A stretch of DNA of 64,000 nucleotides from Lytechinus pictus (lineage: Eukaryota), in assembly GCF_037042905.1 (NCBI RefSeq), contig NC_087245.1, forward strand, positions 18,044,001 to 18,108,000. Reading direction: 5' to 3'. Numbering within the stretch: position 1 is the first letter of the stretch; the number at the start of each line of letters is the position of its first letter. Shown here piece after piece: positions 2,203-58,520 of this stretch. The position numbers were made by a program, and so were the translations under genes. The notes under the pieces were generated by a model. The model was not told the origin of the DNA. It did not search any database and worked only from the letters and a program-made list of their open reading frames with translations.

Positions 2203-2334
2203 GGGTCCCATAACACATATGTTAGCATTATTCGTGTGCTTTATTTTTTTATGATTAATTGTACATCGTAGTCAATGAAATCAATCGTAAAGATATGTTC
2301 TATGGTGATTGCTAAGCTTTATATTACAGGCCCC
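2203..2334. mobile_element. ~130-bp MITE (GGG.CCC.TAACAC...GTTAC.GG.CCC family)
   Basis: Imperfect TIRs; related copies at 2524-2627 (opposite orientation), ~3540-3660 and 40504-40631. Confidence 0.6.
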
Positions 2335-2523
2335 TGTTCTAAAGTACCGACTCAAGAGTCTCAATCATTTTGATTTTCACTAAAATCCAATATTTGTAGC
2401 ATAAAAAGAGCATCTCTATGCAGTGGTTACTATACATGTAAGTCAAAATTTGATAAACATACATTTTTGGGAAATTTAGTATTATATTAAAACTGGTATT
2501 CTATCTCATTTATTATGAGAATA

Positions 2524-2627
2524 GGGGCTCGTAACACAAGGCTTAGCAATCACCATATAACTTTTTTTACGATTGATTGCATTGACTACAATGTACAATC
2601 AATCGCTAACCTTTGTGTTATAGGACC
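2524..2627. mobile_element. MITE, same family as 2203-2334, inverted relative to it
   Basis: ggggctcgtaacacaaggcttagc ... gctaacctttgtgttataggacc. Confidence 0.6.
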
Positions 2628-5011: not shown

Positions 5012-5117
5012 TTACCAGAGTTGAGTAAACTTCATGGTAGCAAATCCAGGATCATGCTTGAGGTCCCAGTAGTCGTTCTTACACACCCATCTATCCTTGC
5101 TTCCGTCATGACCTAAT
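5012..5117 (-). CDS. OSBPL6: ORP last coding exon: [34 protein letters not shown]
   Basis: tttacag acceptor; W..YW..LW-stop C-terminus typical of ORPs; TAA at 5014-5012. Confidence 0.95.
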
Positions 5118-11100: not shown

Positions 11101-14100
11101 GTAGATCCTCCCATTGGCAATGCGACCAAGATCTGTGATGTCACACACGTACAACTCCCTCATTACTCTAGTACTTATTTCACTTATATTCTCACTTTCA
11201 TAGAGTCTATCACAAGGTGAGGTGTTCTCTTTATGAGAGGACAAGTACAGAGGTTTCACAACATTATATCATTGATGAATCGTTTGTCATATGATTAGAA
11301 TGAGCAAAAAGAGACGTTTTGGGGTATATTTTCAGTGTCCAAAAGGGGAGAGTTGTTCATCTGTGACATCATAGATCTTGGTCGCATTGCCAATAGGAGG
11401 ATCTCCATAGCATTAGTGATCTCGACATTCAAATGCTCATAACTCTTCTATTGCTAGTCCTATTTTACTCAAACTTTTGTTGATCTTATTCTTTGATTTT
11501 TCTGCTTTCACAAAAGCTAACTTGCTCCAAGAGTTTCATTCTCCTTTAATAACGTGAAAGCAACATGACAGATGGTTCACATTTATTGCTTTGACTTTGC
11601 CCTGAAGGTGAAAAAGGGAAGGTGAGAAAAAGGGGCAAGGAGACAGGGAAAGATAGCATATAAAGTAGAATGAAAAACATTTGTACATTTCAAGTAAAAA
11701 AATCTTAACTGAATATTTATTGATGTACATGCATCATATTGGTAAGTCTTACTTTGGTATGTGTATGTGAATAGTTCCTATAGGGATGACTTCCATTGAT
11801 TTGCCCCAGAACTTAGTCTTTATCCTCACATCCTGTGAGTAGATGAAGTTTTTACTGTTGCAATGGCAGGCAATAATGGGAGGATGGTGTGATACCTGGT
11901 GGAAGATAATCAAATGGAATTTGTTCAGCATGGTAAGTTTTTCATCTATTACTTTATATCATCATCACTATCACAATATTACCATTATCATAATGAACAC
12001 AATGATCACCAAACTAACTGCATTCATAAGCATTATATCATTCATCACCATCATCTTATTTATCATCATCCCCCCACCACACAATCATCATTATCATCAT
12101 CACATAACCCCCACCACCATCTCCATCACTATCTTCATCATCTCATTCACAATGCATGATTAATGTGAACACTTCCATCACAACACCAAAAAAACATCAT
12201 CTCTTCTATAAATCTCACCTTCTCGGCAATAAACTTGAACCCCTTGTCATCCCTGACACACTCAAAGGTTTCCCCCAGAAGAGGGTTGAAGGGCTTTGTC
12301 CCTGCTCTAGTATACGTTGAACTGTAGCTAGACACCGCAAAGGCTGCAATGTACACCATCCTCATGTAGGGGTCATCGACCTCTGATGCCTTGTCTAATA
12401 GTTCACTGTACTCTAGCTCTTCACATAGTACCTGAATCAAAGATTAAAATCAGTTGTAAGGTAACTCAATTATAAATTGAATGGAAATATACGCCAAATC
12501 CAAATTAAATCAGAGTTATCTATTTCTTTTAAATAAAACATTACAATTACCAGGATAAAACAAACAGCCTCAAAGCTTAATAGTGATAAATCCATTTACG
12601 TGAAAGCCAGAGGTGAAACAGACATGAACCAAAGGTAATCGCATAAAAGTCACATGAAAAAGAAATACAATTACAATACAAAGTAGATTTGACCAAATTT
12701 AAATGAAATATTCAAACATAAAATCAAAGAAAGAGGGTCAATTCAAACACTGTCTTTCAAAACATACAATCAACCGACTACAAGCTTTCACATACTCTAT
12801 AGAATATTGATTGCACAAAAATATTAAAAAATATGCCCAAATTTCTACCCATTATACTTGATCATCTACCATGAAGTATAAATTCTATGACTTTCACAAA
12901 AATGCATACAAATCATTAATGGTAATGAAATTGAGGATAAAATTACCTGTAGCATACTGAGTGGTTCATTGAGAGCAACAGGCATGGAGATCTTGGAAAG
13001 ATCTTTACCAATGTTTTTCTTGAGGATATTCCATAAACTGAGTTGACTGGTATCGGGCTGGGGTGATGGTAGGTGTGTTCTACGGCCAGTATGTGATCGA
13101 GATGGTGCCTCCTCTCTACCATTCTCCACTGTATAACATCAAATAAAACAAATAATCACAATTTTAATACGTCAATAATGCATTTCTACATCACAGTCCA
13201 TATTTACATGTGCTTTCACAGATGATTAAAACATTAATGTGATCAAAGAGGGGATCAGTGTGAAAAGGAATAAACTGGAATTGTGTGTTCTACGGATGGT
13301 ATGTGATCAAGATGATGCCTTCAGTCTAACCTCTCTCTACTGTAGTATCATCAAAATAAAACAAATAATCACCATGATGATAATAATATGACTAGTTGGT
13401 AGCACATTGTCCACATAGACATTAAAATACACTTTCAAAGATAAATTAAGAAATAAATGTGATCAACTACAGGAACACTGTGAAAAGGAATAACCAAAAG
13501 TGGTCATATTTCATGAGTATGATACGTTTAGTTCAATATTGCGGAAGGCATAGTGTTGATGGGGTATAGGTTGACATACTGAAAATGGACTAAGCAGACA
13601 TATAATGCGGCCTTTAGATATATACATATACCACTTATATACTCACAAAATAGTCCACTTCAGGTCAGTGAAATATTCATGACACTAAACTGTGTGTTTT
13701 GGAATAAAGTAATCCAAATTTAGAGGGCTCATATTAATATATTATCAAAAAAAAATTAATTTACCAGAACAGTGAAAGAGCAACTAATCATCTTTGTATT
13801 GATATCACGCACTATGGCCACAACTCATATAATATAAATAAATTAGTCTGCAAGACAACAGGCACAAGTTCCATTTTGTTTTCCCCCAATTTTATTTTTA
13901 AACATTCAGCCTAAAATTCATTAGTATGGCATCCAAAAGGGCCAAACTCAAAGTGACCATGTTCAATGGCAAATACAATTACACTCATCTGAGGCATCAG
14001 TAAAAGATTTCATCTCTGCCTTACTTCCATAATTTTGATCAACATGGAATTTATAACTGTTGCCTTCAACTTTGATTATTTGAGTAATACCAAAGATAAA

Positions 14101-17100
14101 AGTATAATTCAATTTATAATGCTGAGGGGTGTTCCATTTCAAATTCTGATATATTCATTAATTTCTACAAAGTAGACCTGTTAATTTTGATTCATTTTTT
14201 TTAAACGTGCATATTATAGCTCGACACATTTTTGGTATTATCAGCAGATAAACCATGTGTAGATTTTATTAATATCAAATTTTGGTTACTATGAGAGGGG
14301 AGGAAGATGGAGAGGGGGTAAGGTGTCAATTTGGATTCATTTTCATTATATATTCCCTACAACTTGCCTAGACTATTTTCTAATATGCCTTCAACCAGTA
14401 AATTTGAGAAAATCTGAAATGACATCTGAAAGAAAGTTGCATGCAGAATTAGTGACACAAGACAACAGATATTAACCTAATTGTACATGTATGGGAAATA
14501 TTAGGAGAGAAGATACATGTAGGCAAGCATGCAAGACCAGCAAATGAGATATCTCAGATGATCTGATTGTGTCAACTTGTTGGACAAGTGAATAAATAAA
14601 GGAGTGCGAAAGGAGTAATTATTGGAAGCAAGAAAATTAGGAGTCGGTCAGAATGACAGGACGTTTTCTTAAATGACAAAGACAAATACACTCTCACACA
14701 CATGTTTTCTCTCTCTCTTCCTCTTTTTTAAAATTTTCTTTATTCCCTTCTCTTCCGTGCTAATTTCTGGTTAGTCAGAACTCATTGTTTTTATGTTATT
14801 TGGCCGCATGTATTTTCAATTTTGGTGTATCATGATGGGGATGAATGTCGTAATTTAATACATGCGCCCCCAACATGATAAACAACCTTTCTATATGTTT
14901 TAATATTTCTTATGATGTAGAATTGAGCTTTTTTATTTGATGTTGATTGTATTTTTATGTAAATGATTGTAAAGGGTTATGCAATTTGGCTTTTCAGCTG
15001 CTTTAGATACCCTTGTTGAAATAAACCGTTACAAAAAAAAAAAAAATGAGAGAGAATGAGGACAGATGGAAGGAGGGATATGGAGGAGGAAGAGAGGAAG
15101 TGAGAAAGAAGGGGAGAATGATGAAGGGGGAGAATGGAATGAAAGGACAGGAATGAAAAGAAAGAGTAAAAAGGTGTATCTAGCGAGGGATATCAAGATA
15201 CAGTGTACAATTTAAAATAGGAAAGAGGAAACCAGAAAATACACATGCCCCCCACCAACCAAAAAAGAAGTCAAAGAAAAAGTTAAAGAGTAATGAAACA
15301 ACGGAAGAAGCATTACCAGATGAGTCGTGAGATAAACTGTACAAAAAATACAATAAATATTCATTCTTTCTCTTAACGTAACTTAACACCTTCTGGAGTA
15401 AGAGGTTATACATAGTACACGGGGAAGTCATACCCAGTTCATTCTAAATGTATTCAACTCTACCTTAACCCTTGACATATTTGCTTTTTAAAATACCTTC
15501 CTGTAATCTTGATCTCCTAGCAGGATAATACGTCCTACTTTCCTCCTGAAAATCCCTTTGAATTATTCCCATCGCTGGTACCTAAATTAGCCTAGTCCCT
15601 TTTGCCATTTGCTTTCATTTCCGGCTGACTGTGCGCATAATGTTCACAAATCTCCCTTGCCTAACTGCCGGTTTGGCTGGCTGGCTGGCCATTACTCGGT
15701 ATGGTGGTATGATCACTCTATTGCCATGATGCATACCTGTACAGGCGTACATGTATTAGTGCTATTTTTTAAAGTATCTACATGCACCAAACCAGCATAG
15801 GTTTATGAACTCATACCTATTTTTTGGTTTTGTCAATAACTTTTCATGAAGACCGCTAAAAGTCTTACAAATATATACGAGAAAAAGTACACGATTCAAC
15901 ATTAGGCCAATATATAATGCACCAGAATATATTGTCAAATATTAGGAAATCATAAATAGTGACTGAAAGACTTACAAAGAATATATGAAATTAATTTTTA
16001 AAATACTTGAATTGGCAACTGCGATGAAACTTCTGACCATACTCTGTAACTACATGTCCCTCCAATTATTTCAAACAAACTTTAAAAAGACAACAATCTA
16101 GCTGAGAAAAGAAATATTCGAACAATAAAAGCTGACTGAATAAATGTTAAACAACAACATGCATCAAACTAGCACATGTTGGCTGATAGTAACCAAATGA
16201 TATGTTCATATCTACTGCTGATAGCTATGCATAATGATCCTTTAATAACTCTATGAAGGAGAGTAATTTTTTCTAAAATATACTATAAAAATCATGTCAA
16301 CATACTTTCTATGCAGACTCTTTCTCTACAAAGGGGCAATCGTACAAATTGTGAAGTTTTTATACAAGATTCCTGTATTTAATAACATAAAATGCATGCA
16401 AAGAGCGTACATAGTAAATATGAAATAACAAATACATATTGTATATTTTATGTTGAGCCTCATGCTAGTAGGTTGAACTGAAAGAAACATGAGATCTCCA
16501 CTTAAACCAATAAATGGCGTCAATGTAATATAATCATAAACTTATTCATGCATCCCCCTCTCTCTCTCCCTCTCTCTTACAATAAATAACTCTCCATAAA
16601 GCTTTATTCATTTATGGCTATGAACAATTAACAGTACGTTATCAATTAATATTCTTCAGCAAGAAAATCATTGAGTTATATATCAACTCAGGTGAGGCGT
16701 ATTGGTAGCCGGCAGGATTTATTTAATGCACTGGAAACAGCAGCTGGAGCTATATAAACTATGGCCTCAAAATAGAATATTTCTAGGGAGGAGTGGGGAA
16801 ACTGGATAATGTGCATGTAGCCTGACTCTGAGGACTGTGGTATTATCATTATCCTGATGTAAATTGCTATTATTAAATAATTGCATTTTATTGCTGTTTT
16901 CATTATTATTAGAAGTATAATTTTTACTTGATCATGATGACAACTCACTTAAGATACCAACCATGGGATACATGTAGGTTCTGATATCTAATACAAAATA
17001 CATTTGGTTTACGACACTACCGTCTACCACAAGTTGCAAAGTACTTCAAAGTGAAATTTGAGTGAACTTTAAGAGACTTTTCTGACTACTTCATGCTGAA

Positions 17101-20100
17101 CCTTTGAATGGGGGATTATACACCGACTTGGAATGAATGAATAATGAGACAAACAGAGTAGCAATCCTTAACCAATACATTGCCCTTTAAAAAATGACAT
17201 CCAATATCTATCATGTTACTTGACACAAAGAGTAAGATATTATTGACCTAGAAAGATCGACAATTTGGAGTTCATATGCATTTACTACGGTATCAAATAT
17301 GAATACAAGAGGCAATTCATTTTGGTTTCTCTTATCTCTTTATCTCTTCCAGTTCATTGATTTTCAAGTGCAGTATTGTGTAAATCATAACAGCAAGAAA
17401 AGGGGAAATTCAAGCACACACTGTTCACTGCTCTCATGGTGTTTTCTCATTATTCTACATATGTATCAACTGCTAGAAACTTGAAAGCATTATGCAGCCT
17501 CATACACTGTATTTTCCAAACACTGCATAATTCAATTAATTACATGCCCAGCAAACTGTTGCATAGCTTTGTTGACACCCCTTGAAGCCTTTCCTAATTA
17601 TCCAAATCCAAACATTCAGGGTATTGGAAAGGTAGTCAGTCCCCAGCGTCAACGACTGCTGTAATTTATTCACCATGCTTGGTTTGTAATTGGTGATGTC
17701 TGGATGCCTGTGCAATTGAGCTGTAAGAAACGACGTGATATTCCCACCTGAAGAACAGGCAAGGTGAGAAAATACGCCAAGATGTCCTCGACCAATCTGA
17801 ATTATATATTGAAAGAGCTTTGCTCCGAGGAGATACGGAAACTCTGATTGCATCAGCAAGTCAGGAAAGAGCTAAGGCTTGCAACAAGTTAAGGAATTAG
17901 GAGGGTAGAGGGAGAAGACAATGAGGAAGGTTTAAAAGGTAAGGTGTACCCATCGAAAAATCCATTACTGCATACAAGCAGATTTTGTTTACAGAGATTT
18001 CTTTTTCTTTTTCCTTTCTCAAAATCATTATTATCTAAACTTCTGTACATGCCTATTTAGTACATAAACGAAAAAAGAAATTGTAAACATGTAAATAATA
18101 ATTTATTCTGTTACTAACTCCCAAATCATTAAAAAAAATGAAATAATGGTTTAGTATGTAAAGTTTTTTTTTAGAACTACTAAAGAGGAAACCACCATGT
18201 GTAACAACCCCCCCCCCCCAAAAAAAAAGAGAATATTAATTATACCCAAAAAAAATCAATAATAAAGTATTGCAAGAAGAGGAATGAATGCAATATCTAC
18301 TTGAAAAAATTAAACACCATCCTTAATCTCAACTCAGTGTTTTCATTTTGCCATTGACAAGAGAAAAAAAAGGGTAATCAAAGCTTTTTTTCATCTTTTA
18401 TTAAATTTTCATTTTACAAACCCCTTCTCTAAATTCTGTTTGCATTTGTTGAAGGAAAACAAAGTACATTTCAACATTAAACATCATCATTATTGAGGGT
18501 AATGAAGTCTTAACGTTAGACTTGGAACCATATTAGCTATCACTTTGATGAGAGTTCTGAGAGAAGCTTCTATGATAAAACATCTGTCACATGTAATATA
18601 ATTCTATGACAATATCATCTATTCAGCACTCCAGGGTCATTAAGTCTCGAAAAAGGCAAATACCCTCTAGCTCAAAGAAGTGATATCCCCTCTTCAGGAT
18701 CAGAAATGCATTTGCTCTTATTTCACAAGGAATAAATCCTTGTTGCTTTCAAAGAGATGTTTTAAATTGCTATGAGACGTGGATAAATCAATGCTCAGTG
18801 AACCTCAATGGTAGTATCTTCTTATCACCTGCTTTATAGTCTAGTCAACAAGGCAACCATAGAGAAAATAGTAAAAATACAACAGAATATGTGGAAGGTA
18901 CATAAGTCCTAGGTGAAAAATTCATGGGATATATTAGGGTGAACTGCCCCCTAAATGTCTACCATGGCACTTGTATCCTTTGGCAAGGTCTTTATCTATG
19001 TAAATTTACCACTCTCCACCCAGGTGAAGTAAAATGGATACCAGGCAGGAAAATATATATATATATATATTTGAATGCTGAAGCACCTGATCAGCTTAGA
19101 AACATTAGTTATTAGAAAGGTATGTTATTTTTGCTCCCATTATACCCCAGCGTTTCTGAGACATAAACTCAATATATACTTAAGATTGCAAATTTAAGAG
19201 CCCCAGGTATTAAGATATTCTAGTATATCTAGAGGGCAACATTGCCTTCAAGTTGAACTAATTGTGAGAGATGAAATGTAGAGTAATCTACCATGGACTC
19301 TGCTACATCAGCCCCTCTTATTTTACTTTATTTTAATCTCTAATGACAATAGCTGTCTTGAAATGGATCAATACATGTATGCAAGACAGTCTCTGTTTTT
19401 ATAATGACATTGGTTAACATCATTACAGAACAGAAGCATTGTTTAGCTTTTAAATGTCATCCATTTGCTTTCAACTTCAACTCATCATTCTCTCCATCTC
19501 TCTCACACACTATCACCCTCCACCCCCCCCCCCCGGCCCAAGTCCTGTCTCTTTGAAATAACGCTTGTAAATTTTTTCTATAATTTCATGATAGCCAAGT
19601 TAGTATTTGGGGGCTCCAGCATACTCTCGTATGCAAAGGAGCTAATCTGGTCCCTAATCAAACTCCTCTCAGAGTGAGATGAGGGACCAGCCCTGATGGA
19701 GTGATATTTCGGTCTTTCAAGAGTGAATTTTCACCTCTTTTGGAGTGAAAGTACACTTTCAATCAAAAAAAGGTGAAAACTCACTCTTGACAAAAACTGA
19801 AATCTCACTCCATCAGGACTTGTCCCTTATCTCACTCTGACAGTGTTATTAGGGACCAGATAAGCTCCTTAACATGTATCCCACGTCCTGCATTTTTGTA
19901 TACGTATTGTACAAAAGGCCTTGGGACACTGTATGTAACATGAAAGGTCAATACTTGATGTCAATTTGTCCTGAAAATAAATATAACTTTTCTAAATTCT
20001 ATAATTAATCATTATGTTTTTTTTTTCTTCTTTAAATGCACTTAATCTATGTACATGTACCTAGACTCTCAGTTGCATAACTATCACATATTCACACTTG

Positions 20101-22988
20101 TGTAAGAAGCCAACGAATATGACCTGAAATATATCCAACTCTAAATCCCAAGAATCTCATCAGGTGCCAAGTTTACTCACGTCCAACAAACCCATCCTGT
20201 CTACTTATCCCCTACCTCATCAGTTACCATGGCAACAGGTCGTTTCCATGAGGAAACCATACAAAAATCTGCATCTCATTTTATTAAGAAGCTAACTGGA
20301 TATTGCAGACCCTGCACCAGGTGAATTTCTCCCCTCCATTTTGAATTTGAAGCAATGCATGGTTTATGGGGATGACGGATAATGAATTATGATAGTAAGT
20401 TGAGTAAATGGATTGGAACAATATGGGGTAGGTCGGATGGTAATCTCTTCATAGTGCACTGGGATGAGAGTAGCATGCACTGAAGCTCATCAGCATACAT
20501 CACTAATGACTGACTGAGATTTAAGAGGACCACTGAATGAAAGGTTTTTAAAAAATGTAAACATGTAAAAAAAAAATGATATTGGAATATCCAGGGACCC
20601 ATTGATCTAACATACATGACACTATTAGAAATGAAACATGTGAAGCAAGAAGGCTTGAATATTTCTTCCTTTAACAAGAAATTTCTTTTATGATTTAGAT
20701 GATTAAACCACTCAAAAGTCTTTGATAGGTTTGAAGGTTCCATTGAAATAGAAGAGCTGTCAAGAGTTTTGTTATTCGATCTTGAAAAGCCACTACAACA
20801 TCATAACATTTGTCAAGAGTTATGTGCAAAGAGAGTGAGAGAGAGATTAAAGAAAACAAGAGAGAAAGGTAAATTATTTAAAATCATTGCAGATGCATAT
20901 TTAATTTTGAAAAAAAAATGGTATTCAAAATAATTCATGTTCTATTTTCAGTTTTTCGGTTTTCAAATGAAATTGTAATATTGATGTACATATAATTGTC
21001 GTGACATATTCATGATAAAAATATATTATATGCAGAAATGAATTGAAGGCAACATGAATCATCATCATAATTATTGCGCAATGTGAAATACTCTTTGTGA
21101 AAAAGAGCACACAATAACAATCACTTTAATCTACATTATATGTACATGTCTCCACATTTTATAACTCCATTTCCCCTTGTCTATTGCTATCTATGCCTAT
21201 AAACCTGTCTTCCTTTCTATCCCCTGTACTGACATATGTAGTACATACAGTCCCTCCATTCATCTATCTTTTAGTATCAGCTAATTTTCTATCTATCTAC
21301 ATGTCTATTTCTTTCTCTCTCTCTAGATATATATATATCTGCATATGTATTAAAACACCTTCAAGTCAGTAGACCTCTAAACCAAATAATAATCAATATA
21401 TTGTGGATGGATTAGAGGGAACACAAATACGTCTGAAATGAAAAGGGCAACATCCTCAGTATCATGACTCTTAATGACACAGTATTATATGAGACTGTCT
21501 GCCTTTTTATGACTTTAATAATGGAGACATAAAATCTTCAGATTGAAGAAAAGCAAAAGAGACATGTCTTTATCGGTTTTCGAATTTTTACTTGTGATTG
21601 CCAAGCTTTTTGAAGCTATTCAGATCTATATATATATCTATCTCCCTGTATGGTTATATATTCTTGGAATCCAGCTTGCTAAAAATATTTTTAACTCTGT
21701 TAGACAATCCTCTAGCATCTTTAAGGCTTAGACTACTGAATGCACCATTTGTTTTCAGAATATGCATTGATTCATAAACTGGTCAACTGCTGAATATATT
21801 GTAATGTGCACAATTCGCTTCAATGAAATCTAATGAAGATGTTAAAGTACTGACTGTAATTTAATACTTGAAGGATGACAAAAAGAGAATCATGGCGCCT
21901 ATATAAATTGAAGACACATGCACATCATAAAAACCATGATGTGCAATTTTTTTTCAGTCTTTTCTTCAATGTAGTATTTCCATGAACTCAAGAACCTCAA
22001 CCTCAAAATGGTATTGATTAATACCTATACATGTTTAAGACATGACAATGGTGCGATGGACATGTTAATGATACAATACTTGAGTGCTAAAAGGAACAAA
22101 GACTGATTGTTGTGGATGAGTGCTTGCTCAGTGCTCTAAATGTACCACTTTTCTAACATAAATCAATCTGATCATATGAAATAAATGAAAGAACAGAAAT
22201 CTTTAATAAACAAAATAATTTTAATATGAAACATGCATGGCCAGGAAAATGGTAAATATATCATCAATTTACATCAAAATCATGTGTTCAGATTGAATTA
22301 ATATTGTCAACTTTCCTATGCAATCACAAACTGATAATCATCATGTCATATGCTACAGATGTCAAGAACAGCTCATTTCTTTGGGTTCAATTCTAATAAT
22401 CAATGGCAATTATGACCTACATGGAAAGAGCCACTGGCAATACAGAAACAAGTGGAGATTACTGTACATGTACATGTACACAACAAGGTGGTTAGATTCA
22501 ATAAAAGACTGTTCAACCAAGCATGTAAGCACCTACCAGAGCATGGCTTGTCCATAAACGTTACTGTCATTCTCTCTATTGCTTCCAACACAAGACTATG
22601 TCCACTTAAAACATCTCATTTTTCAAATCCATCTGCTGGAACAGGATCCCCTCCTCACACAATTCCACAAGATAACACTTGTTAATGTCAGCCTTAAAAA
22701 ATCTATAACTCTCTCACTGGAGCAATTTGGAGTGCGAGGCTAGCTAGTGGCTATACAGACACGGCCATCCCACACACTCACCGGTTCTGACGACATTCGC
22801 GATGCAAGCCACACTTTAATTAATCTGCCATATATGCGCTCGTTCGGTGACGAGTATGAGCAGCGCAGAGACCTTTAAGATCATGTATTTGACTTGACAA
22901 TGTGAGTATGCATTGCAGTGAACAGAGGGGTGGGGAGAGAGGGTGAACAGAGGGGTGGGGAAGGGAAGAGAGCATAATGGACAGAGAG

Positions 22989-23025
<37 letters not shown>

Positions 23026-26000
23026 AAAAGAGAAAGAGAGACATGGGGACAGAGGATGGGAGAAAACCAGACAGAGGAAAAAAGGAAGTAGGAATGAGAT
23101 CAAGAAAGACAGAAAGAGATAGAAATAAAGAAGAGGGACAAGGAAAAACAGAGAAACAAATAAATATTTGTTTAAACAGAGAGAGAGAGGATAAGGATGC
23201 CAAATAATGAAAGTAAACAGTGTTAGAACTACAGAGAGTGCAGAGAGAAGATGGAGAAACTACAAAAGGGAAAGATAACTTTTTTTCAAAAAAGGACAGA
23301 GGGGAGAAGGCAGAGAGGGGCACACACGGTGCAAGGTGGGATGGGGGTGTGTGTGTGTTTTCAAACCAGTATGGTACAATGAATGAAGTACTTGTATAGT
23401 GATGAAATCAATTTGTGCATATGTCGATGCATGGTAAACCAAATTAGGACTTGCCATTCAACTATTCCATCAGTGAATACACCATGCATGAATCTGCATC
23501 AATTAAATAGTTCAATTACCTTTGTACTAGTTACTAAGCTCAAGCTGTCTTCTGGAGTGATGGTGCATCAGATAGCATTTAATACGGAAATATATTTCAT
23601 CATGTGTGCTTTAAGGCTTGTTCAGAAATAGTGTGTCAAAGCTCAGCAAGATTTTTGTGTCAAATGGATATAAGATATTGCAGAGGCAATATCAAAAAAA
23701 GGTTGGGTATTTCTTGTTTATAAAATTGCTAGGCAAATTTATCAATTCATAAATGAAATTTAGCTCAATAACTGGGAAACCTCAAATTTAAAAACTATTG
23801 GCCAAAATGTTGACTATTTGCAAGTGTTTATGTTTCAATCAGCAATATATTGCAAAACTGTTTTGTATGTTCAAAACGGTACAATGTCATTTTTCAACAA
23901 TTTTTGTGCAGGTTTTAGTGATTTCCATCCTCTTGCATGACAACAAAATCAGCAGACTAATCAATTTTTTCTGAAAAGTTATAGAAAATCAAGTTATTAA
24001 AGTAAACAAACTCATGACATGTGTAATAAGGAAATCCCCATGGCATCAAATAACATGAATCATGACATCAAAGATAAGTCTGTACTACTATTTGTTTTAC
24101 TTTCAATTAGAACAGTGCTATTTATCTCACTCTGTATGACAAATGGTACATGTACATGTACAGATGTAATTGGCTTGTACATTATGTGAACAAGGCTCCA
24201 ATCTTAATACTCAAAAGACACACATCAACGTGTCTACTTAAATTTGAGCATTTTTTGGTTACATTCAAAATGAACAAGCAAATATTTTCATATAACTAAT
24301 TGAGAAATAACTGAAACTGGGTCTTGGAAAATATTATCATCTGAATTATATGTCCACCTTTATAGCATAAAGCCTTTTATAGCAAACCTGTTGATACAAA
24401 TAGCAACATGCTCATTTTTATTTTCATTCAAGATCAAATGGCATTGGTGTCTGTACAAAAAAAATGCAAATACATGTTTATACTTTTGTTTTCAGAAAAA
24501 CATGTGTCATATGAATGCCACCTTCCACTAAAGCCCATGTGTTCTAACCCTAATGTGGTGTTTAGTAATAAACATGTAACAATAGCCCAATAATGTATCA
24601 AATCTCTTTTAAGTGTTCTTTGCCTGTGGAGGCAATATAGCATCATAAATGCAAACGATCCCTCCACTGATGCATCTAAAGCTGAGCTCTCCCAGTTAAT
24701 GATTATTTTGGCAGCCAGCAGTCTTCAAATATTTGCAGAGAGTGTAAGCAGAGTTCTATGTGTAGCTGCATATGTAATAGCCTACTGGAATTATAGTGGG
24801 AATATGCAGGATTAGATGGCTCCCGTCGTAAAAATATGACACCAATGAATATATCATCCACATTTATTTTAGAAATCCAATTTCATGTTGATAACAGAAA
24901 AACATTCATTTTGTGATTTCATAGTTTTTATTAAGCATTTATTGAAATAATTAACTATTCCTACCAAAAAGCTGTTAACCAGTAACCAACTCTTTCTAAA
25001 GAGTTTAAAGTTTAATTCAATCTTTCATCTCTGAATAATTTCTAATATAAATAATTTATTGGTTGGATTGCTTAACTAAGCTAGTCGTACAGACTGTTTC
25101 ACCCTAAGGCTCATCAGCGACTAGATGATATTGCAGTATATCACTACTTACTTACTTACCTAATTTCTAATATATTCAATCAATCAGTACTACATAGAAC
25201 ATGCAAACCCCACAAAATAATCATTTATCAGTTGATCACGTTTTATCTAAATATCACTACATAAACATATAGTACATAGCTAGTAGAGATATCCCTGGGG
25301 GGCACTCAAATTATTTTTTTTATGGGGGTGGGCCATACGAAACTCTGAAATGGGGGTCTAAGGAACTGACTAAAAGGGCAAAGTACGGGTCTTGGGAACT
25401 AGATATATACCGCGCGGTGTGAAAAACAGGGTCTACGGAACGGGATTGCGGCACTTCAATCAATTTCAATTTAAAAAATTGATAGTCTTAATTTTGAGTT
25501 TGTACAATATATGGATTTCAAGAAGTTAATTTCACGATGTTTAATCATTTAACAATTCAATTTGATAATGATCAATTTAGAATTGATTCCTCAAATAATT
25601 TTATTGCCAATTCAATAACATATCTATTTTTTTTTAATAATCATAAAGTAAAAACAAAAATCACTCTTTTCTTTAATCAATAAAAATATTGATGTGAGTG
25701 TGATTTCTCAAAATCATTCAAAAAATCTAATACAAAATTAATTTTCTTATCAAATTTGATTCTAAGAATGCAAAATAATACTCAGGGAAAAGTTGTCTTA
25801 AATCTTTTAATGCAAGGTCAAAATTGTTTTTCATGATTAAATCAGATCTCAATAGGTGGTTTCAAACCGCCTCGATCACAAGAATCCCCGTTAAATTACG
25901 AGAACATTTTTAGGCTAAAAAATACCCATTAATTATTCCTGCATTCAGACCGCCCCGAAACATACACTTCGGGATAAATTCCTGAAGTTAGGAGCATGCG

Positions 26001-29000
26001 CAGTATGGTCTAATAAGCAGGCAAGGCGCGAGATTCAAAACCACTAGCCCACCAGACACCCACGGCGCTGCACCCAACGACACGCTGGGCTAAAAGTTCC
26101 CGTAATTTGCTTTCACATCGCCAAAATACCTGCGACCTTGGAAAAATCCCCGTGAAAGTTCTCGTAATTTCGCCAAGTACTTACTATTTAGCGGGTATTT
26201 TCTTTCGGGGAAATTACGCGTAGTTTGCTTTCACATTACCAAAATACCTGGTATTTTCTGATTGGGGTAAATTTCCCGATCAGAGAATACCTAGAACTGA
26301 CGAACTTCGAGGCGGTCTGAAACCACCTAATGAGCTCACAAAATTGTGCTGCTTCAAGATGATGAAGATAAACACATTTTGATTCTAAGGCCATAAATAT
26401 GTTCTAGACCTCTATCTTGCCCATACTGGCAATGAATGCTATCTATGAGCACCGAAAGGTGGACCTGTGCACTACAGTCCGACCTTTCTTTTCCGGCCTC
26501 CTCTTATCCGGATCTCTCTATTATCCAGACGCACACTTGCCGAGTGTTTTTTTTTTTCAATCTAGTAGGTGGAAAAACGAGATTTCAATCTAAACTCAAA
26601 ATTCCTACGCAAACTCACTTTGATTACATACATTTTCCAACCTACAACCACATTATCTTTTATGAAAATATCTTACCCAAATCACCGAAAGAACTTAAAC
26701 AGGATGATTTTCCAGTAAATCATTAAAACCATTTTATCACATTCTCTTTTTTTTTCCCAGGAAAAAACAACACATGTCTCACTAACTAGCGCTAGGCCTC
26801 GATACAGACAGTGCCATCTATCATGTTTGAGCCTACAGTCATAACAATGGCCTACTTTGAGAAGCTGCGATGGTCGCCGCGATGATCCAATATTAAAACT
26901 TACATGTAATTTCATTCTCTTTCTTTCGAGGTATGCTCGATGTATACCTCAATCATTTCAGCAGGTAAATTTTCCAAGATTTTTGGTAACCAATTGATTT
27001 CATTTCCGTAAAAAACGCCTATAATTTGCACTGACACTGCAGTGAATACTGTCTGTGTATGCCCACTACAATAGATTATGTGTAGCTACCATAGGGGAGG
27101 CAGTTGCGTGTATTTGTATTGGGTCTCCCAGATCCGGATAAATCCCTTATCCGGATTGGTGCTGGTCCCAACGTGTCCAGATAAGAGAGGTTGGACTGTA
27201 GCCACCATTATTATTATCTAATATAATACATGTTCATTTCTAATTTTGGCAACCAAATAAATTTATATTTTACCCTGTAATCATATTCCTAGTGCTATAC
27301 ACTTTGGAAAAAATATAACCCCTAAGGGAAAATATGCCAAAATAATGTTATATTACACACCCAAACTTGGTCAGTCAATACCTGTATAACAGGACAGAAA
27401 GGGATACTAAATTATGGTATACTAAAATATATTTCATTCAAAACCCAGGATTTGCCATACGTAATGTATGCAAATTAAATTTTAATAAAAGACAAATAGA
27501 GAGTTCATCGTTATCTAAAAGAAAGAAATATTAATATGCAATCTGGCCTGTGCATGCTCCTTTTTAACAAAGACTTGAAGGTTAAGCATAAATACGGATG
27601 AATCCATGTATTTCATCACAATCACTACCATTTGCAAATTTATATTGAAAGCTGTTATCAAGCTTCAGATGACATTTAGTGTATGATGGTGGTCCCCAAG
27701 TGTGCGCACCTAACGATTTGAGTTAAGATTTAACATGAATTTCTTATTACTTCATAAAAATCTTTCAGTTGATAATGATCCTTATATTCTTATGAGTAAG
27801 TGTGCCAAATATCTCATAACAAATTTGAAAGAAATATATGATTTTCTTGGAAAAATCCTCAAGCAGTAATTTTCAGATTGAACAAAAAACATGCGATTCA
27901 GGGAGTTTGATGAGAAAGGCTGCATTGTGAGGCCGTCACATGAAATGCCCAAAATTCATTATTTTCCCACCATTTTGAGTCAGACTTTTTAATGAATATC
28001 TGTCTATGTATTGCATGTGTAAAGTTTGTGTTCGCTGCGTATCTTCTATCACTAGAATCGCGCAGATACGCGTATGCACAGACAAGAGGGACTGCGCAGA
28101 CTTGGGGGAACTTGCCATACATTTTAAAATTTTACCCACATTTCATATAAAATCATTTGGATTCTGTAGACTGTATCATACAGGAAAAACAAAATAATCA
28201 AGAAACTACATTTCAAATTAGACAAGACAAACTAACTATTGCATGTGCTGTATTCATCCCAATTGAAAAGCCTGCTTATAAACAGGGCATATAAGGAGAT
28301 GAAAATGCAACAAGCCAATAATTCCCTTTATTTCTCTAAAATGTTATTTGATATTGAAACAGATAGTATGCACAAAGTGAGACAAAAGACTAAACAAGTG
28401 GAACGCCTCTGGCAGTCTCGCCTGCATTACGCGATTTAATATAGCAGCAGTGCTAACTTTGAAAACTACTATAAAATAATCATTCACAAACACTCCATTC
28501 ATATAATGACATAATACCACGTTCATTGACCATAAATGACATTTGAACGGTGACTTAAGACTTGTCAACTACATCCATGTCCACATTTCAATCACTCTAT
28601 CTATAAACTTTCAAAGTTATGATGGCAATTCAACAAGTACCCCAACATGGCCTGAGTTTATTGACCTTAACTGACCTTTGACCTTGGTTTTGTGACCTGA
28701 AACTCACAGGGGATGTTCAGTGATACTTGATTACTCTTATATCCCAAGTTTTATGAACTAGATCCATAAACTTTCAGAGTTAGGATGGTAATTTAACAAA
28801 TACCCCCAACACGGCCAAAGTTCATTGACCTTTAATGACCTTTGACCATGGTCATGTGACCTGAAACTCGTACAGGATGTTCAGTGATACTTGATTACTC
28901 TTATGTCCAAGTTTTATGAACTAAATCCGTAAACTTTCAGAGTTAGGATGGTAATTTAACAAATACCCCCAACACAGCCAAAGTTCATTGACCTTAAATG

Positions 29001-32000
29001 ACCATTGACCATGGTCATGTGACCTGAAACTCGCACATGATGTTTGCTAATACTTGATTAACCTTATGTCCAAGTTTCATGAACTAGATCCATAAATTTT
29101 CAAAGTTATGATAGTAATTCAACAAATACCCCCAACTTGACCAAAGTTCATTGACCCTAAATGACCTTTGACCTTGGTCACGTGACCTGAAACTCGAGCA
29201 GGATGTTCACTAATACTTGATTAACCTTATGCCTAAGTTACATGAACTAGGTCCATATACTTTCTAAGTTATGATGTCATTTCAAAAACTTAACCTTCGG
29301 TTAAGATTTTGAAAATAATTCTCCCAACATGGTCAAAGTTCATTGACCCTAAATGACCTTTGACCTTGGTCATGTGACCTGAAACTCAGGCAGGATGTTT
29401 AGTAATACTTGATTAACCTTATGTCCAAGTTTCATGAACTAGGTCCATATACTTTCTAAGTTATGATGTCATTTCAAAAACTTAACCTTAGGTTAAGATT
29501 TGATGTTGACGCCGCCGCCGTCGGAAAAGCGGCGCCTATAGTCTCGCTCTGCTATGCAGGCGAGACAAAAAAACAAAAAAGGATGGTCAGATGACCTGCA
29601 AACATAATGGCATCTACCTACGAAGGGCACAGGGTGAAAACATTCTCTTCTATGGGGAAGGAATACATTTTCAAAAGGGCTTTTCAATAATTTCTTTCAC
29701 TCTCCACAGAAAATCACATACACCAAGCACATCAGCAACATTCAAATTCAAACTTTAATTAAATTTGGACTTTAACTCTTTGTGCGCTGGACCATGAACC
29801 CATCTGTACTGAATTATTTTCAGGGAGGGAAACAATGCGTTGTTTGTTGAGTGTTTGTGTTTGTTGAGCACCGAGTGTGCATTGGTGCGAAGTACACGTG
29901 AAAAGGGTTAAATGATACAGCAAAATGGAGACTAAGTTCTTATCTCAAGTAAACTAATTACTTTAGGTATCATAACAGGAATCACCAAACAGTTTTGAAG
30001 AAATGGACAATTTCAATGTGACATTACCGATCTACAACTGCTATTTCTTTCAAAGATTGTAGGCTTAGTGGTGACTAGATGCTGAACGAGATTCTTAGCA
30101 AAAGCTGTTAAGTTGCCACTTTTGTTAGGAACATTACACAAATATATAATAATAAGAATAGTTGTGCTTCATAACTTTTGTACGTAAGTATCTAATCCAG
30201 CTATAGATAAATACGATCATTATCACAGAGATGCCAACCTAAAGGGATGGTTGTCAGGAATATTTACCATATTTGTCAGGAACAAATGGGAGTTTCTCAG
30301 GAACATCCCGCGAAGTAGCATCGTTTATACGCTCAAAAAAAAAAAACTCAGAAAATGAGTGAACAATGTCTCCGCCTTAATGATTTCGTGATCAGCTGAA
30401 ATTGATGTAGAGGATTGGAAAAATGTATCGATTCCAGGAGCTTTCTGCAACTTGGCATATTCTTTATGCTTTTTGCTTGAAACATGTCTTCTACAGTCAT
30501 CGCGTCCTCCGTGTGAAATTGAAACATCCAGTTTGCACGCTGAACAAAAGATGTGGTTTTTACTCACTTTACTTGGCTTTAAAACTGGCCACACAGCAGA
30601 GTATTCCATTTTAAATGTCTGCAATCTCCTTTTTTTTGGTAGGCTGTGACTCCATTTCGCCTGCGTCCGTAATTCTTTTGCGCGATTCCATGATGTTAAC
30701 GATGTTAAACTTTCAACCACCAAGACGAATGCTACTTCGAAGTTTGAACTCGCTACAGTGCAATACACGTATATGCAGCGCAGTGACGTGCCTAGCAGTA
30801 GCACTGCACTAGCAGTTACATGCGATTACCATGTCACACATGTGTTCATGTGTACAGTCAATCGCCATTGACATTGTGCATGCATGAACCGCGGCTTGCA
30901 CTCCGCACTTCGCTGTGTATTCAGCAGCAGCGCGCGGAGGCGCTTGCAATAGAAATCTCAGTAGAGAAACTCCCGTTGGTTTACCGTTGGCCACACACAC
31001 GCTGCATGCACGATACATGTATACACAATACACGCATATACATGCACAATACACAATACACGCATATATACACATGCACAGCAAAGCAATACACAATACA
31101 CATGTATTGTAGTTGTTTTTTCCGTAACCTTTTTACTGTTGCCGTAACACCGTAATTGGAGGAATAAAATCGGAACAAATACGGCGAATCCGGAACGGTT
31201 GGCATCTCTGTTATCATCATCAGGAATTATGAATTATTATTATTCTTAAAATCAAGACACCCAGGCCTGTATTCTGGAGTCTAATCTAACTCGGCTAAAC
31301 TTATGGGTAATTGAAATTATGAGAATTGTCTTTGCACTGCATGCTTATATTCATTGTGCTCTTTAATGGTGAATAAAGCTATTTCATTTATCATTCCCAG
31401 TAAGTTATGAATGATTTGAACAACAAATGTGCTGACAAATGGAACTTCAATTACCAGAGACTAGTGTCGTAGTTAAACCACAACTTCACACAAGAGTTTA
31501 AATCGAACCTGAATTCAGAATACAAGCCATACACTTAATACAAACACTCCACAAAACGAAAAGTAATACTTACAATCTCGGAAGTCATCTTCCTCAAAGT
31601 CAGCTGCATCATCATCTTCGCTGGTTACCGAACTTTCAACCTCCTCCTCCTTACAAAACAAAATAAGTTGTGAAGCAATCAAATGTAATTCTGTCATCGC
31701 CTTTCCAGGCAATTAAACAACATAATTAGGTACAACCAGGGGAAAAATATTGCTTGCATTTTTTCCCTACAACTCTTTACATCAAAATTGTATTGAACCC
31801 AATAGCAATTTACAGAGGCTCTTTCACAGCAAACATTGTCATTTAATTTTGTATTTCTTTTTTGCCCTTACCCCCATCTACTTTTTAGTGCAATCTTTGT
31901 ACAGAAAATTTGAAATCTTGCTGATAAAAAAATTAAATTCATGATCATCAACCCTCAGTCACACAAGATTGGGCTTTAAAGCTTAACAAGTTTATTTAGT

Positions 32001-35000
32001 GTTCAGAGATATTGAGACAAATCGCCCATTCAATCTACCTATGTTTTGAAAAAACATTATGAAACTGCAAAAAACATGTCAAGTTTGTAAAAACACTCTC
32101 AAGACATTACTGCAATTTCACATTTAATGTTAATGTGATGATCTTGTCTGTGCAACCACCAGCAAACTTTACTCTGCCTTAAGTCTTAACAGATTGGTTT
32201 GCAGGTTTTTCATCCTCTAATTTTCCATTGAATTTATCAACAAAATGCTGCTGAATCGCGGTCAGCCATGTCGGAGTAATCCTTTACTGGTTAACAGAAA
32301 TCTTGACTTGTCAATATTTCCAATTTTGACTCACTGAGATGATAATAATGAGAGAAGTGTGATTTTTTTTACCTCATCTGATGAAGAAGCACTTGAAGCA
32401 AGATACTCCTGAGCATCGAAGAATTCCACAATTGATTCTGAACGTGATAATCTATCATCTGATAGCTGTGGTGTCAGTGGAGTGTGCTGTAGATTCAAGT
32501 AAAATCAAGTTCAAGTATCTAATATTGCAGCTTTTGAAAAGTGATCAAATGGTCCTGAAAATGCAACATTCTTATTTTAAAAAATCCTGCTCATTTTGTG
32601 TAAAAGTCGTTCCATAAATGCATTCAAGTTCTGAATTTTTATCAGCAAAATTTGAAGTAAGGAAAATGTACAATACAAACACACATTCGTATGTAACGTG
32701 TATTGTTACAACTGAAATAAAAAATAAAAATAATGGAAATATACATATTCATAAAATCATTTGTAATTTCAGAAAAGGTTACATAAAACATCCCACAGGA
32801 TGAAATGAAAAACAAGGCAAACGACAAGCGTTGTCTCGCCTGCATATTGCAGTCATGAAGAGACTGCATGTCAAATCTGAAGGGTAACATTTAAGAAACT
32901 TTGACAGCTTTTCTATTGCACCATTGGCAAATTTGTGTGAATATTATAAATGGTGCCAAGAACTATAGCTCATTAAATAAATAACAACAGTTTTTAAAGA
33001 ATAAACAAGTAAAATACAAAATCTGGTTCAGGTATAGAGAGTACTGAGTTCTGAAGTAAAATGTTAGTGTTAAAAAGTATAAAATTATAAAGTTCATGTC
33101 ACTAAAGGAACAAAGTAGTGTGAAAGTTCATTGACCTTTGACCTTAATCAAATTCAACTCACATTCGAACCTGACCTGCACCTTCAAGAGATGGACCTCT
33201 GTTACGAGTTTGGCGATCCCACCTCGAAGCTATAGAAAGTTATTGTGTGTACAAAATAGCACAGTGCCAGTCATGGAAAGTTCATTGACCTTTGACCTTA
33301 ATCAAATTCAACTCACATTCGAACTTGACCTGCACCTTCAAAAGATGGACCTCTTGTATGAATTTGGCAATCCTACCTCGAAGATATAGAAAGTTATTGT
33401 GTGTACAGCACAGCACAGTGCCAGTCATGGAAAGTTCATTGACCTTTGACCTTATTCAAATTCGGCTCACACTTGAACTTGACCTGCACCTTCAAGAGAT
33501 GGACCTCTGTTATGAATATGGCGATCTCACCTCGAAGCTATAGAAAGTTATTGTGTGTACAACACAGCACAGTGCCAGTCATGGAAAGTTCATTGACCTT
33601 TGACCTTTGACCTTATTCACATTCGACTAATATTCGAACTTGACCTGTGCCTTCAGGAGATGGACCTCTGGTATGAATTTGGCGATCCCACCTCAAAGCT
33701 ATAGAAAGTTATTGTGTGTACAACACAGCACAGTGCCAGTCATGGAAAGTTCATTGACCTTTGACCTTATTCACATTTCGACTCATATTCGAACTTGACC
33801 TGTGCCTTCAGGAGATGGACCTCTGGTATGAATTTGGTGATCCCACCTCGAAGATATAGAAAGTTATTATGTGTACAACATAGCACAGTGCCAGTCATGG
33901 AAAGTTCATTGACCTTTGACCTTATTCAAATTCAAACTTGACCTGTGCCTTCAGGAGATGGACCTCTGGTATGAATTTGGTGATCCCACCTCGAAGCTAT
34001 AGAAAGTTATTGGGTGTACAACACAATTGTTGACGACGACGACGCCGGAAATAGTGATACCTATGTCTTGCTCCGCTACGCAGGCGAGACAAAAACCCAA
34101 CACTTTCAGTGATCAACATTATCTCTTCTTTCTCTGTTTCATTGCAATAATTTGATGGACTGTATAACTTATCATACTTTCACTATGCTGATCTGTATTT
34201 CCATATTTCTATTTCAAGCTTCATTTACTGTCAATGTGGAAACTCATGAATTGCAACCTCATAATACAAATAACCTGAACTTTTCTCAATGCTAAAAATC
34301 AATGGAAGAACATTAACTGAAAAGCTTTGAATTACCTGTAGTGGAAGTGTCATATCTAGGTCAGGTTTAGCTGCTATAGGTGTGAAAGTGATGGAAGCCT
34401 CTTCAAAAATTCTGGAAAGACGTTCACGCATATCGTCATTCTGCGCTTTCAGCTGTGTGATAAAACAAAGATTAAATGATAAAGAGGATACAAAGGTTGT
34501 TTTTATCCTTTCCAATATAACCAAGAAGACTTCAGTAAAATATGAATGTACATTCTATTGCTTTTTCATACAATTTATAATTTTAGATCACATACTTATA
34601 TTCCCTTTTCTAACAATACTCACTAATAGAGTTTAAAATTTTGAACATTGTTCTTTTTTGGTGCATATGCTAATCAATATCATACAATCATAAAGTAATA
34701 TATACATGGTAAATCCATTTTAACTTAATTATTATAATGGGTAGTGTGTACAAATCATTCTGCTTGATAAAATCAACTTGACTGAGCTTCAAAGATTCAC
34801 TTTACATGCAAATGCCCAGTTTTGTCAGTGGCACCTCAACAAGGCTCTTATTTTAATGAAATTATCTTTAGATATAAATTGATTCACACATTTGAAACAT
34901 TTTTCTAACAGGTACATTGAAATTCATATTCTCGAATATAAAATTTTGTAAAATTGACTTCATATAAGGTCTTATTTTTTATTGAATAACTATCTTGACA

Positions 35001-57881: not shown

Positions 57882-58417
57882 TACTCTTAAGCAACACTAC
57901 TCCACCACATGATCACCTGAAAGAATCACCTGAAAGAACAATGTTATAATATGTTATTAATCTTTAAATCTTGTATGATAGATTGTGGTATCATGCAAGT
58001 AGTTTCAGAAACTGTCAGTTCCAAGAAGCAGTCGGTAAACTTTACCCAGAATTCAAAATCAAAATCACCTATATTATGAAAGCTAAAGTGATTCCTATTT
58101 CCTACCGCACCTAAAGTCCGCAGACACAAGATGCTGATTGAAAATTTGATCAACAAGAGGGGTTTCACACTTGACTCATACAAACATTGTACAACCATGG
58201 AGCTTGGTACTACCATACAAGAGGGTCCTTCTGTACAAAAATTACCAATCGGCAGGTACTCAATAGTCTGCATACATGTATTTAGATTCAGACCATTTTC
58301 TTCCAGTAAAGGGTATACATGCAAACTTTGCACATCAAATTATAAAACTAGGGACTCTCAGAAGACAGGATGTACAGAACATCCCAATTATTTATCGTTT
58401 TTTATTATCATCATTAC

Positions 58418-58520
58418 CCCGGCTAAAGCAGGGGTAATAATAGCAGGGCCAGCTGGGAGAACAGTTTTCGGAACTGAAGTGGCTACCCTGGGTAAATATG
58501 CCGTTATTATTATTATATCA
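58418..58520 (+). mobile_element. SINE 3' tail fragment
   Basis: ggggtaataatagcagggcc.gctgggagaacagttt...actgaagtggctaccctgggtaaa + (ATT)n; reverse-orientation copies at ~49080-49196 and ~59728-59832. Confidence 0.65.

What the first reader, a model, noticed from the sequence alone, without database searches (positions are those of the whole stretch)
25036..25174. The ribozyme sits in a 111-bp mini-retroposon with a 14-bp target-site duplication
Seen: TAATTTCTAATATA flanks both sides (25036-25049 and 25161-25174). On the minus strand the insert reads GG(TAAG)3, a TGATAT/ATATCA hairpin, the hammerhead, a GCTTA/TAAGC hairpin, then AATAAA. Inference: this is a very small non-coding mobile unit (solo Penelope pseudo-LTR or retrozyme monomer) that may represent an undescribed family. 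Its 5' junction also creates a consensus donor, AG|GTAAGT at 25160/25159, in the host's sense orientation.
Basis: partly seen in the sequence, partly recalled or inferred. Interest (0 to 1): 0.7.

Follow-up and report, generated by a model that had tools for sequence, protein, structure and literature searches.

The report
Tiny Penelope-element end with hammerhead
This 111-base insertion in a sea-urchin intron is a real, repeated piece of mobile DNA carrying a self-cleaving-RNA motif, most likely the clipped end of a known kind of jumping gene (a Hydra-type Penelope-like element) and not a new self-contained mini-element.

Summary
In detail: an exact 14-mer brackets 111 bp containing an intact type I hammerhead, sense to an OSBPL6-like gene in an 18-kb intron of a Lytechinus-like urchin. 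Contigs of a related urchin show many dispersed copies with sharp ends at both duplication borders and AT-rich, unlike flanks, so it is mobile DNA; no empty site was seen. The '111-bp unit' is doubtful: in all four runs laid, contigs leave the window at 25122 into one shared longer upstream sequence, no listed contig bridges 25122-25127, and one contig holds 25127-25155 on the opposite strand downstream of the ribozyme. Best reading (0.6): a head-to-head pair made of about 77 bp of a Penelope-like element's hammerhead end plus its inverted 34-bp tail. The ribozyme's geometry matches published Hydra-clade hammerheads. No parent ORF was retrieved, so clade membership is inferred. The splice donor is real as sequence; use is untested. 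The scan noted similar Penelope ends elsewhere in this genome (e1-7810721, e1-7882047). New member of a known kind; modest interest.

The parts
25036..25049 (.). Left copy of 14-bp direct repeat (putative target-site duplication); its last TATA is shared with the family's end, a likely priming microhomology
   Evidence: Exact repeat; contigs of other copies match to 25045-25048 and then diverge. Empty site not seen.
25050..25080 (-). 31-nt 3' stretch after the ribozyme: 4-bp hairpin, then a G-free A/C/T stretch with AATAAA (25060-25055); no poly(A) tail
   Evidence: Hydra-1_aJap and Hydra-1_Amil end 40 nt after their hammerhead
25081..25124 (-). Type I hammerhead: stem I 7 bp (25124-25118/25087-25081), CUGAUGA from 25117, stem II 3 bp with G.U closing pair and 4-nt loop, GAAA, palindromic stem III ACAGUCUGU, predicted cut after GUA at 25088
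   Evidence: covariation with unrelated metagenome motifs; no cleavage assay
25123..25127 (.). Inferred inner junction between the two pieces (exact point ambiguous)
   Evidence: Contigs diverge at 25122 from the left and at 25127/25128 from the right
25127..25160 (+).
   Evidence: Record 11 of run X4 holds it on the opposite strand, 29 letters downstream of the hammerhead end; 5 X1 contigs end at 25162 in unlike flanks; composition
25154..25161 (-). Consensus 5' splice donor AG|GTAAGT made by target plus insert; use not shown
   Evidence: One of 3 such octamers on the minus strand of the window, the only one in this intron
25161..25174 (.). Right copy of the 14-bp direct repeat
13129..31573 (-). 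Host intron (about 18.4 kb, phase 1 inferred) of an OSBPL6-like gene whose coding exons span 48773 to 5015
   Evidence: tblastn of P0002 and local alignment of the missed exon

Best explanation
The insert is a very short insertion product of an endonuclease-bearing Penelope-like element (PLE), probably of the Hydra clade. Shown: a duplicated AT-rich 14-mer, a multi-copy family, a hammerhead 31 nt from one end, and a longer shared sequence upstream of the hammerhead in other copies. Inferred: the parent's GIY-YIG nuclease nicked both strands 14 bp apart; one nick primed reverse transcription at the TATA just behind the ribozyme and copied only about 77 nt; the other primed at the end of the optional 'tail' and copied about 34 nt; the two cDNAs were joined head-to-head near 25123-25127, leaving a 5'-truncated ribozyme end plus an inverted tail between the duplications. 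The copy cannot move by itself. Its ribozyme is probably weak alone, since the palindromic stem III favours a dimer, and the splice donor is a by-product of reading the inverted (CTTA)n tail next to a TA target.
For:: 79 contigs of run X1 lie on the stretch; summed word depth is about 31 on the orthologous flank and 1,220-5,315 over the insert (a rough 70-170-fold ratio; not a copy number). Loose ends sit at 25045-25047 (8 contigs) and 25162 (5 contigs) with unlike AT-rich flanks. At 25122 contigs of all 4 runs (3 in X1, 1 each in X4, X7, X11) run on into one similar upstream sequence, 255 or more letters in X4 and X11. X4 record 11 holds 25122-25046 and, 29 letters further, 25127-25155 on the other strand; one X1 contig has (AT)n before 25128; X11 has no cover beyond 25122. 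None of the 16 listed pieces crosses 25122-25127, and X1's list goes down to 59 letters. Both outer ends are a hairpin plus a G-free stretch against TA, like the AC-rich stem-loop RT starts and both-strand nicking at AT-rich DNA shown for an anole PLE (PMC11167929). Head-to-head inversions, a 31-bp optional tail and 8-10 bp TSDs are described for PLEs (PMC3846280). Of 26 Hydra-clade hammerhead rows, 14 print the second core as tgaa, 17 have four-base stem III arms round one base and 4 have acag/ctgt arms; 26 of 27 Hydra families list (TA)n as target (PMC8557442 supplement).
Against: 73 pieces and 17 loose-end rows were not shown, so a short bridging contig may be hidden. The depth by bin fits a contiguous 111-bp form as well as two pieces. 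The opposite-strand arrangement rests on one contig of depth 4.5, and its 29 spacer letters were not printed. With that spacer the tail would be about 63 nt, longer than the 30-40 bp described. Organism A is a relative, not the window's own species, which may have its own 111-bp subfamily. No parent ORF was retrieved. The same stem III occurs in short hammerhead repeats of unrelated metagenome contigs with no PLE-like ORF seen in the two loci whose ORFs I listed, so the motif alone does not prove PLE origin. No empty allele was seen.
Confidence: 0.6

Rival explanations
1. A defined, colinear 111-bp non-autonomous PLE derivative that is copied as a unit: either an internal-deletion product (element 5' end joined to its 3' end) or the spliced form of a pLTR transcript whose intron ends at the AG before stem I, as in D. 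virilis Penelope.
For: Both outer ends are sharp in several X1 contigs, and the two parts are of similar depth. The divergence point is an AG at the 5' edge of helix I and the loose letters upstream are pyrimidine-rich on the minus strand, the place where the Penelope intron ends (PMC4209133). The window's stem I is 7 bp. The minimum-energy fold pairs the TAAG repeats with sequence 3' of the ribozyme.
Against: No listed contig bridges the junction; the 5' piece is found on the opposite strand in X4 and after (AT)n in X1; no loose end showing an intron start after 25121-25123 is listed. No look-alike in the scan's indexed windows (weak, the index covers 296 windows).
Confidence: 0.25
2. Monomer of a non-LTR retrozyme: a tandem repeat unit cut out by its hammerheads, circularised and reinserted by a PLE enzyme.
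For: Canonical type I hammerhead with short palindromic helix III, low GC, long TSD (PMC7229834); solo monomers and consensus lengths of 51-972 bp are described (bioRxiv 10.64898/2026.07.22.740005); contigs of run X11, guessed to be RNA, carry the ribozyme end at depth 156-365.
Against: Single copy here; no joint that goes back from the 3' end to the 5' end is listed in any of the 4 runs (table 5); copies continue into a longer upstream; the 111 nt are not a stable self-paired RNA (z -0.73).
Confidence: 0.07
3. A host-recruited regulatory cassette: the donor defines a 30-nt poison exon (25189-25160) or the ribozyme cuts the OSBPL6 pre-mRNA.
For: Sense orientation; perfect donor; an AG 30 nt upstream would give an exon with an early stop in phase 1 (read by hand); ribozyme core intact.
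Against: The hammerhead fold has an ensemble weight near 4e-5 as a monomer; there is no second copy in the window to dimerise with; the upstream pyrimidine tract is weak; no RNA evidence; the intact state is explained by recent insertion.
Confidence: 0.05
4. The 14-mer match is a local AT-rich coincidence, not a target-site duplication.
For: The 14-mer is 93% A/T; one X1 contig matches on to 25037 with 3 differences; no empty site seen.
Against: 12 of 20,000 simulations, and the family's ends fall within 5 bp of both repeat borders.
Confidence: 0.03

Closest known systems
Hydra-clade Penelope-like elements and their 3' hammerheads (Craig et al. 2021, PMC8557442; e.g. Hydra-1/2_aJap of sea cucumber, Penelope-1/2_SK, Penelope-1_NV)
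   Same: CUGANGAN core, short stem II, frequent U before GAA, palindromic ACNN-n-NNGT stem III, hammerhead 30-40 nt from the end, TA-rich target.
   Different: Different stem and flank sequences; no ORF in the insert and none retrieved; no Lytechinus or Strongylocentrotus entry in that supplement.
Inverted head-to-head PLE insertions with optional tail and TSD (Adineta Pen2a_Av, PMC3846280; anole PAc mechanism, PMC11167929)
   Same: Inverted piece at one end, tail-sized segment, TSD at AT-rich DNA, two apparent RT start points.
   Different: Here the inverted piece would be the tail alone and the whole insert only 111 bp; TSD 14 bp against 8-10 bp in the passages read.
Minimal hammerheads (min-HHR) of metazoan PLEs (Cervera and De la Pena 2014, PMC4209133)
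   Same: Dispersed single type I motifs left by truncated PLEs; AG at the 5' edge of helix I; likely dimer dependence.
   Different: This motif keeps a 9-nt stem III, has a short stem II and G.U instead of the G10.1-C11.1 pair; the two S. purpuratus motifs in the supplement differ.
Animal non-LTR retrozymes (Cervera and de la Pena 2020, PMC7229834; Li et al. 2026 preprint)
   Same: Non-coding, type I hammerhead, long TSD, proposed PLE-driven mobility.
   Different: No tandem copy, no circular joint listed, shorter than the 150-450 bp units, attached to a longer upstream sequence in other copies.

Membership tests
Type I hammerhead ribozyme | Core CUGANGA, GAAA and NUH in order, with helices I-III able to form | tested here: met
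   86% of cells paired and 4 pairs changed on both sides across 5 motifs, 3 of them close kin
Type I hammerhead ribozyme | G10.1-C11.1 pair | tested here: not met
   G.U here; unchanged in the X4 and X11 contigs; U before GAA is common in Hydra rows
Type I hammerhead ribozyme | Reaches an Rfam hammerhead family's curated score | tested here: not met
   No gathering hit; best 16.9 bits against 56.3
Type I hammerhead ribozyme | Self-cleavage at the predicted site | not testable with these tools
   Needs transcription assay; monomer fold is rare in silico, stem III self-duplex -8.3 kcal/mol
Hydra-clade PLE | Single ORF with RT and C-terminal GIY-YIG lacking CCHH, DKT and RWK motifs | not testable with these tools
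   Insert is non-coding; no genome held; parent sequence not retrievable from the contigs laid
Hydra-clade PLE | Canonical hammerhead near the 3' end | tested here: met
   31 nt from the end, Hydra-like geometry
Hydra-clade PLE | Insertion into (TA)n | tested here: inconclusive
   Ends abut TA/TATA and AT-rich flanks, one (AT)n tract; this site is AT-rich but not a microsatellite
EN+ PLE in general | pLTR, tandem or inverted structure with optional tail | tested here: inconclusive
   Inversion inferred from one X4 contig and from missing bridges
EN+ PLE in general | Target-site duplication proven by an empty site | tested here: inconclusive
   Orthologous X1 contig stops at 25003; no cover right of 25175 in any of 4 runs
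Non-LTR retrozyme | Tandem hammerhead-bearing units | tested here: not met
   One copy in the window; no back-joint listed; other loci of the genome not seen
Non-LTR retrozyme | Abundant circular RNA | not testable with these tools
   Only contigs were served; RNA status of X7 and X11 is a guess
min-HHR of PLEs | No non-conserved helix III nucleotides | tested here: not met
   ACAGUCUGU stem III present

The most novel reading that the evidence does not exclude
This family inserts by twin priming on one RNA: each of the two PLE RT start sites is used by one target strand, so every insertion carries the inverted tail at one end and the ribozyme end at the other, with the TSD recording the nick stagger. 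The 111-bp copy would be a minimal record of that reaction, and the inverted (CTTA)n tail beside a TA target would plant a consensus splice donor at each insertion.
Probability: 0.35. Interest if true: 0.55.

Novelty: new member of a known kind. Interest (0 to 1): 0.27.

Why it matters
As a sequence it adds one undescribed sea-urchin family to a known class of hammerhead-bearing PLE ends. The more useful point is mechanistic: why PLE copies carry inverted ends and a tail at only one end is unsettled (antisense self-priming was proposed in PMC3846280; two-strand nicking and two RT starts were shown in vitro in PMC11167929). A family with tens of short copies whose two outer ends are both sharp would let twin priming be tested by counting arrangements in one assembly. 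My searches for twin priming with Penelope terms listed no PLE paper using the term (listings only, open-licence library only). If the donor is used, such insertions could also seed cryptic exons.

Tried and rejected
Run search: 14 runs, all small shares (0.05-0.08), no RNA holder listed on record; 4 of 14 were laid. Exact or degenerate patterns found 0 matches in viral contigs, 0 in metagenomes, 0 in prokaryote genomes; these collections are not expected to hold urchin DNA. Relaxed patterns gave 2 viral and 24 metagenome matches; 21 of these 26 lacked convincing stems and were dropped, 5 (L011, L012, L016, L017, L022; L017 and L022 are the same locus) look like hammerheads of other families; 4 were aligned. 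ORFs were listed for 2 of them and none looked like a PLE protein by eye (no family scan run). No other copy of either piece in the window. No look-alike among earlier scan windows. Rejected: SINE (no poly(A) tail by direct reading; no tRNA scan run); introner-like reading (the insert lies inside an existing intron); ATG in the core as ORF start (stop after 11 codons, read by hand). PMC5785218 was not held. Supplement file 1 of PMC4209133 could not be searched and the preprint's supplements were not seen; either, or Repbase/Dfam, may already list this family.

Full report
1. What is in the sequence. The 14-mer TAATTTCTAATATA is exact at 25036-25049 and 25161-25174 and encloses 111 bp. Such a bracket arose in 12 of 20,000 local simulations. 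The minus strand carries a type I hammerhead: 7-bp stem I, CUGAUGA at 25117, a 3-bp stem II closed by G.U, GAAA, the palindrome ACAGUCUGU and a GUA site cutting after 25088. It is the only such motif my scan found in 64 kb, and 1 of 300 simulated windows matched it. Rfam does not call it. The monomer fold has a computed weight near 4e-5, while stem III pairs with a second copy at -8.3 kcal/mol, in line with dimer-dependent metazoan motifs (PMC4209133, parts 1-2 of 4 read). The first hairpin, (TAAG)3, AATAAA and the donor are as described; the second hairpin is 4 bp, not 5.

2. Setting. The window holds an OSBPL6-like gene on the minus strand (Pfam Oxysterol_BP in 3 of 9 frames scanned), whose exon is 97% identical to a Lytechinus variegatus protein. 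Exons mapped by tblastn and local alignment place the insert in an intron of about 18.4 kb, 31573 to 13129, sense to the gene. No second copy lies in the window, and none of the frames I scanned gave a PLE domain.

3. Copies elsewhere. No genome was held. The run search gave 14 runs with small shares; I laid 4 on 24500-25290 at 80% likeness. All were contigs. In X1 (organism A, a close relative by its diverged flank) 79 contigs lay on the stretch. Summed depth was about 31 on the flank and 1,220-5,315 on the insert, and zero right of 25175. The ratio of 70-170 says 'many copies' but is not a copy number. Loose ends lie at 25045-25047 (8 contigs) and 25162 (5 contigs), with AT-rich consensus of mostly low agreement. 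The family's ends therefore coincide with both repeat borders. The orthologous contig stops at 25003, so no empty site was seen.

4. The 111 bp are probably two pieces. At 25122 contigs of all four runs continue into one similar upstream sequence that the window lacks (3 in X1, one each in X4, X7, X11; 255 or more letters in X4 and X11). The ribozyme part itself is almost invariant: 0 differences over 77 bp in X4 and over 53 bp in X11. X4 record 11 holds the ribozyme end and, 29 letters further on, 25127-25155 on the other strand. One X1 contig has (AT)n before 25128. None of the 16 listed pieces crosses 25122-25127, though X1's list reaches down to 59 letters. Against this: 73 pieces and 17 loose-end rows were not shown, the depth by bin fits both models, the inversion rests on one low-depth contig, and organism A is not the window's species.

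5. How it most likely arose. Shown elsewhere: an anole PLE protein nicks and extends both strands of AT-rich DNA and starts reverse transcription at two sites that bound the tail, in an AC-rich stem-loop; its hammerhead cut only with protein present and was not needed for insertion in vitro (PMC11167929, parts 1-2 of 4). PLE insertions often have a head-to-head inverted piece, an optional 31-bp tail and 8-10 bp TSDs (PMC3846280, passages; PMC8557442, passages). Inferred here: one nick primed at the TATA behind the ribozyme and gave about 77 nt, the other primed at the tail end and gave 34 nt, and the two were joined. Both outer ends read as a hairpin, a G-free stretch and TA. This resembles twin priming of L1, a model I recall and did not read; searches listed no PLE paper using the term. 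The wording 'head-to-head pair' came first from scan note e1-7882047. I give this reading 0.6, a colinear 111-bp unit 0.25, a retrozyme monomer 0.07, host recruitment 0.05 and chance 0.03; PLE origin in some form is about 0.85-0.9.

6. Comparison with known families. The motif is not a min-HHR, since it keeps stem III, and differs from the two S. purpuratus motifs listed by Cervera and De la Pena (supplement file 2, part 2 of 3). It fits the hammerheads of Hydra-clade PLEs (PMC8557442, section 11 and supplement part 2 of 59): of 26 rows, 14 print tgaa, 17 have four-base stem III arms round one base and 4 have acag/ctgt arms; 26 of 27 families list (TA)n targets; two of the three consensus ends I saw stop 40 nt after the motif, the third about 96 nt. 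The clade is defined by its protein, which I could not test, so the insert looks like a Hydra end but is not filed as one with certainty. Non-LTR retrozymes share the motif type and long TSDs but are tandem 150-450 bp units (PMC7229834, passages; PMC7761336, passages); a 2026 preprint derives them from PLE pLTRs and reports monomers (parts 1-3 of 5). Penelope repeats are annotated in another urchin (PMC11066563, passages). Five of 26 relaxed pattern matches are hammerheads of other families with the same stem III and compensatory stems I and II, which supports the fold but shows that the motif is not specific to one family.

7. The donor. AG|GTAAGT is perfect and the only one in this intron. 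An AG 30 nt upstream could define a small exon with an early stop (read by hand). No RNA evidence bears on it. Under the best reading it is a side effect of the inverted (CTTA)n tail meeting a TA target.

8. Verdict. Real, mobile and apparently recent; an undescribed family of a known kind as far as reach (Repbase, Dfam and unseen supplements were not searched). The scan has noted similar PLE ends on other DNA of this genome. Interest 0.27; the twin-priming reading, if confirmed across copies, would deserve about 0.55.

Noticed in passing
window 25845-26337: Element with 31-bp terminal inverted arms (90% complementary) and internal direct and inverted repeats, MITE-like; 25854-25947 has a 73% match at 57196-57289.
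   Followed up: no
window 25290-25470: GC-richer block starting about 115 bp right of the insert, with three 13-nt GGGTCT..GGAAC repeats; probably the end of another transposon.
   Followed up: no
window 28599-29501, 33122-34025, 52070-52527: Three tandem arrays of 154-192 bp units sharing TGACCTTTGACC words, all in introns or upstream of the host gene.
   Followed up: no
window 30325-30825 (-): 166-aa open frame with a C-x2-C ... H-x5-H pattern like a BED-type zinc finger of hAT transposases (label recalled); no Pfam hit at E 0.01.
   Followed up: partly
window 24745-24911: Organism A's orthologous intron has different sequence here (165 bp replaced by 117 in X1; 99 by 58 in X7), so this intron turns over fast.
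   Followed up: no
L012:340-414, L016:1067-1126, L017, L022:2986-3060: A short dispersed hammerhead family of about 75 bp in apparently animal DNA of metagenome contigs, same stem III as the window, with an interrupted stem I extension; L016 has (ACTAG)n repeats at its 5' side; no flanking duplication of 10 bp or more found.
   Followed up: partly
L011:700-745: Another hammerhead with the same stem III inside a roughly 773-bp tandem repeat unit, a retrozyme-like arrangement.
   Followed up: no
window 58092-58523 (+): 143-aa open frame with no Pfam hit, outside the mapped host exons.
   Followed up: partly
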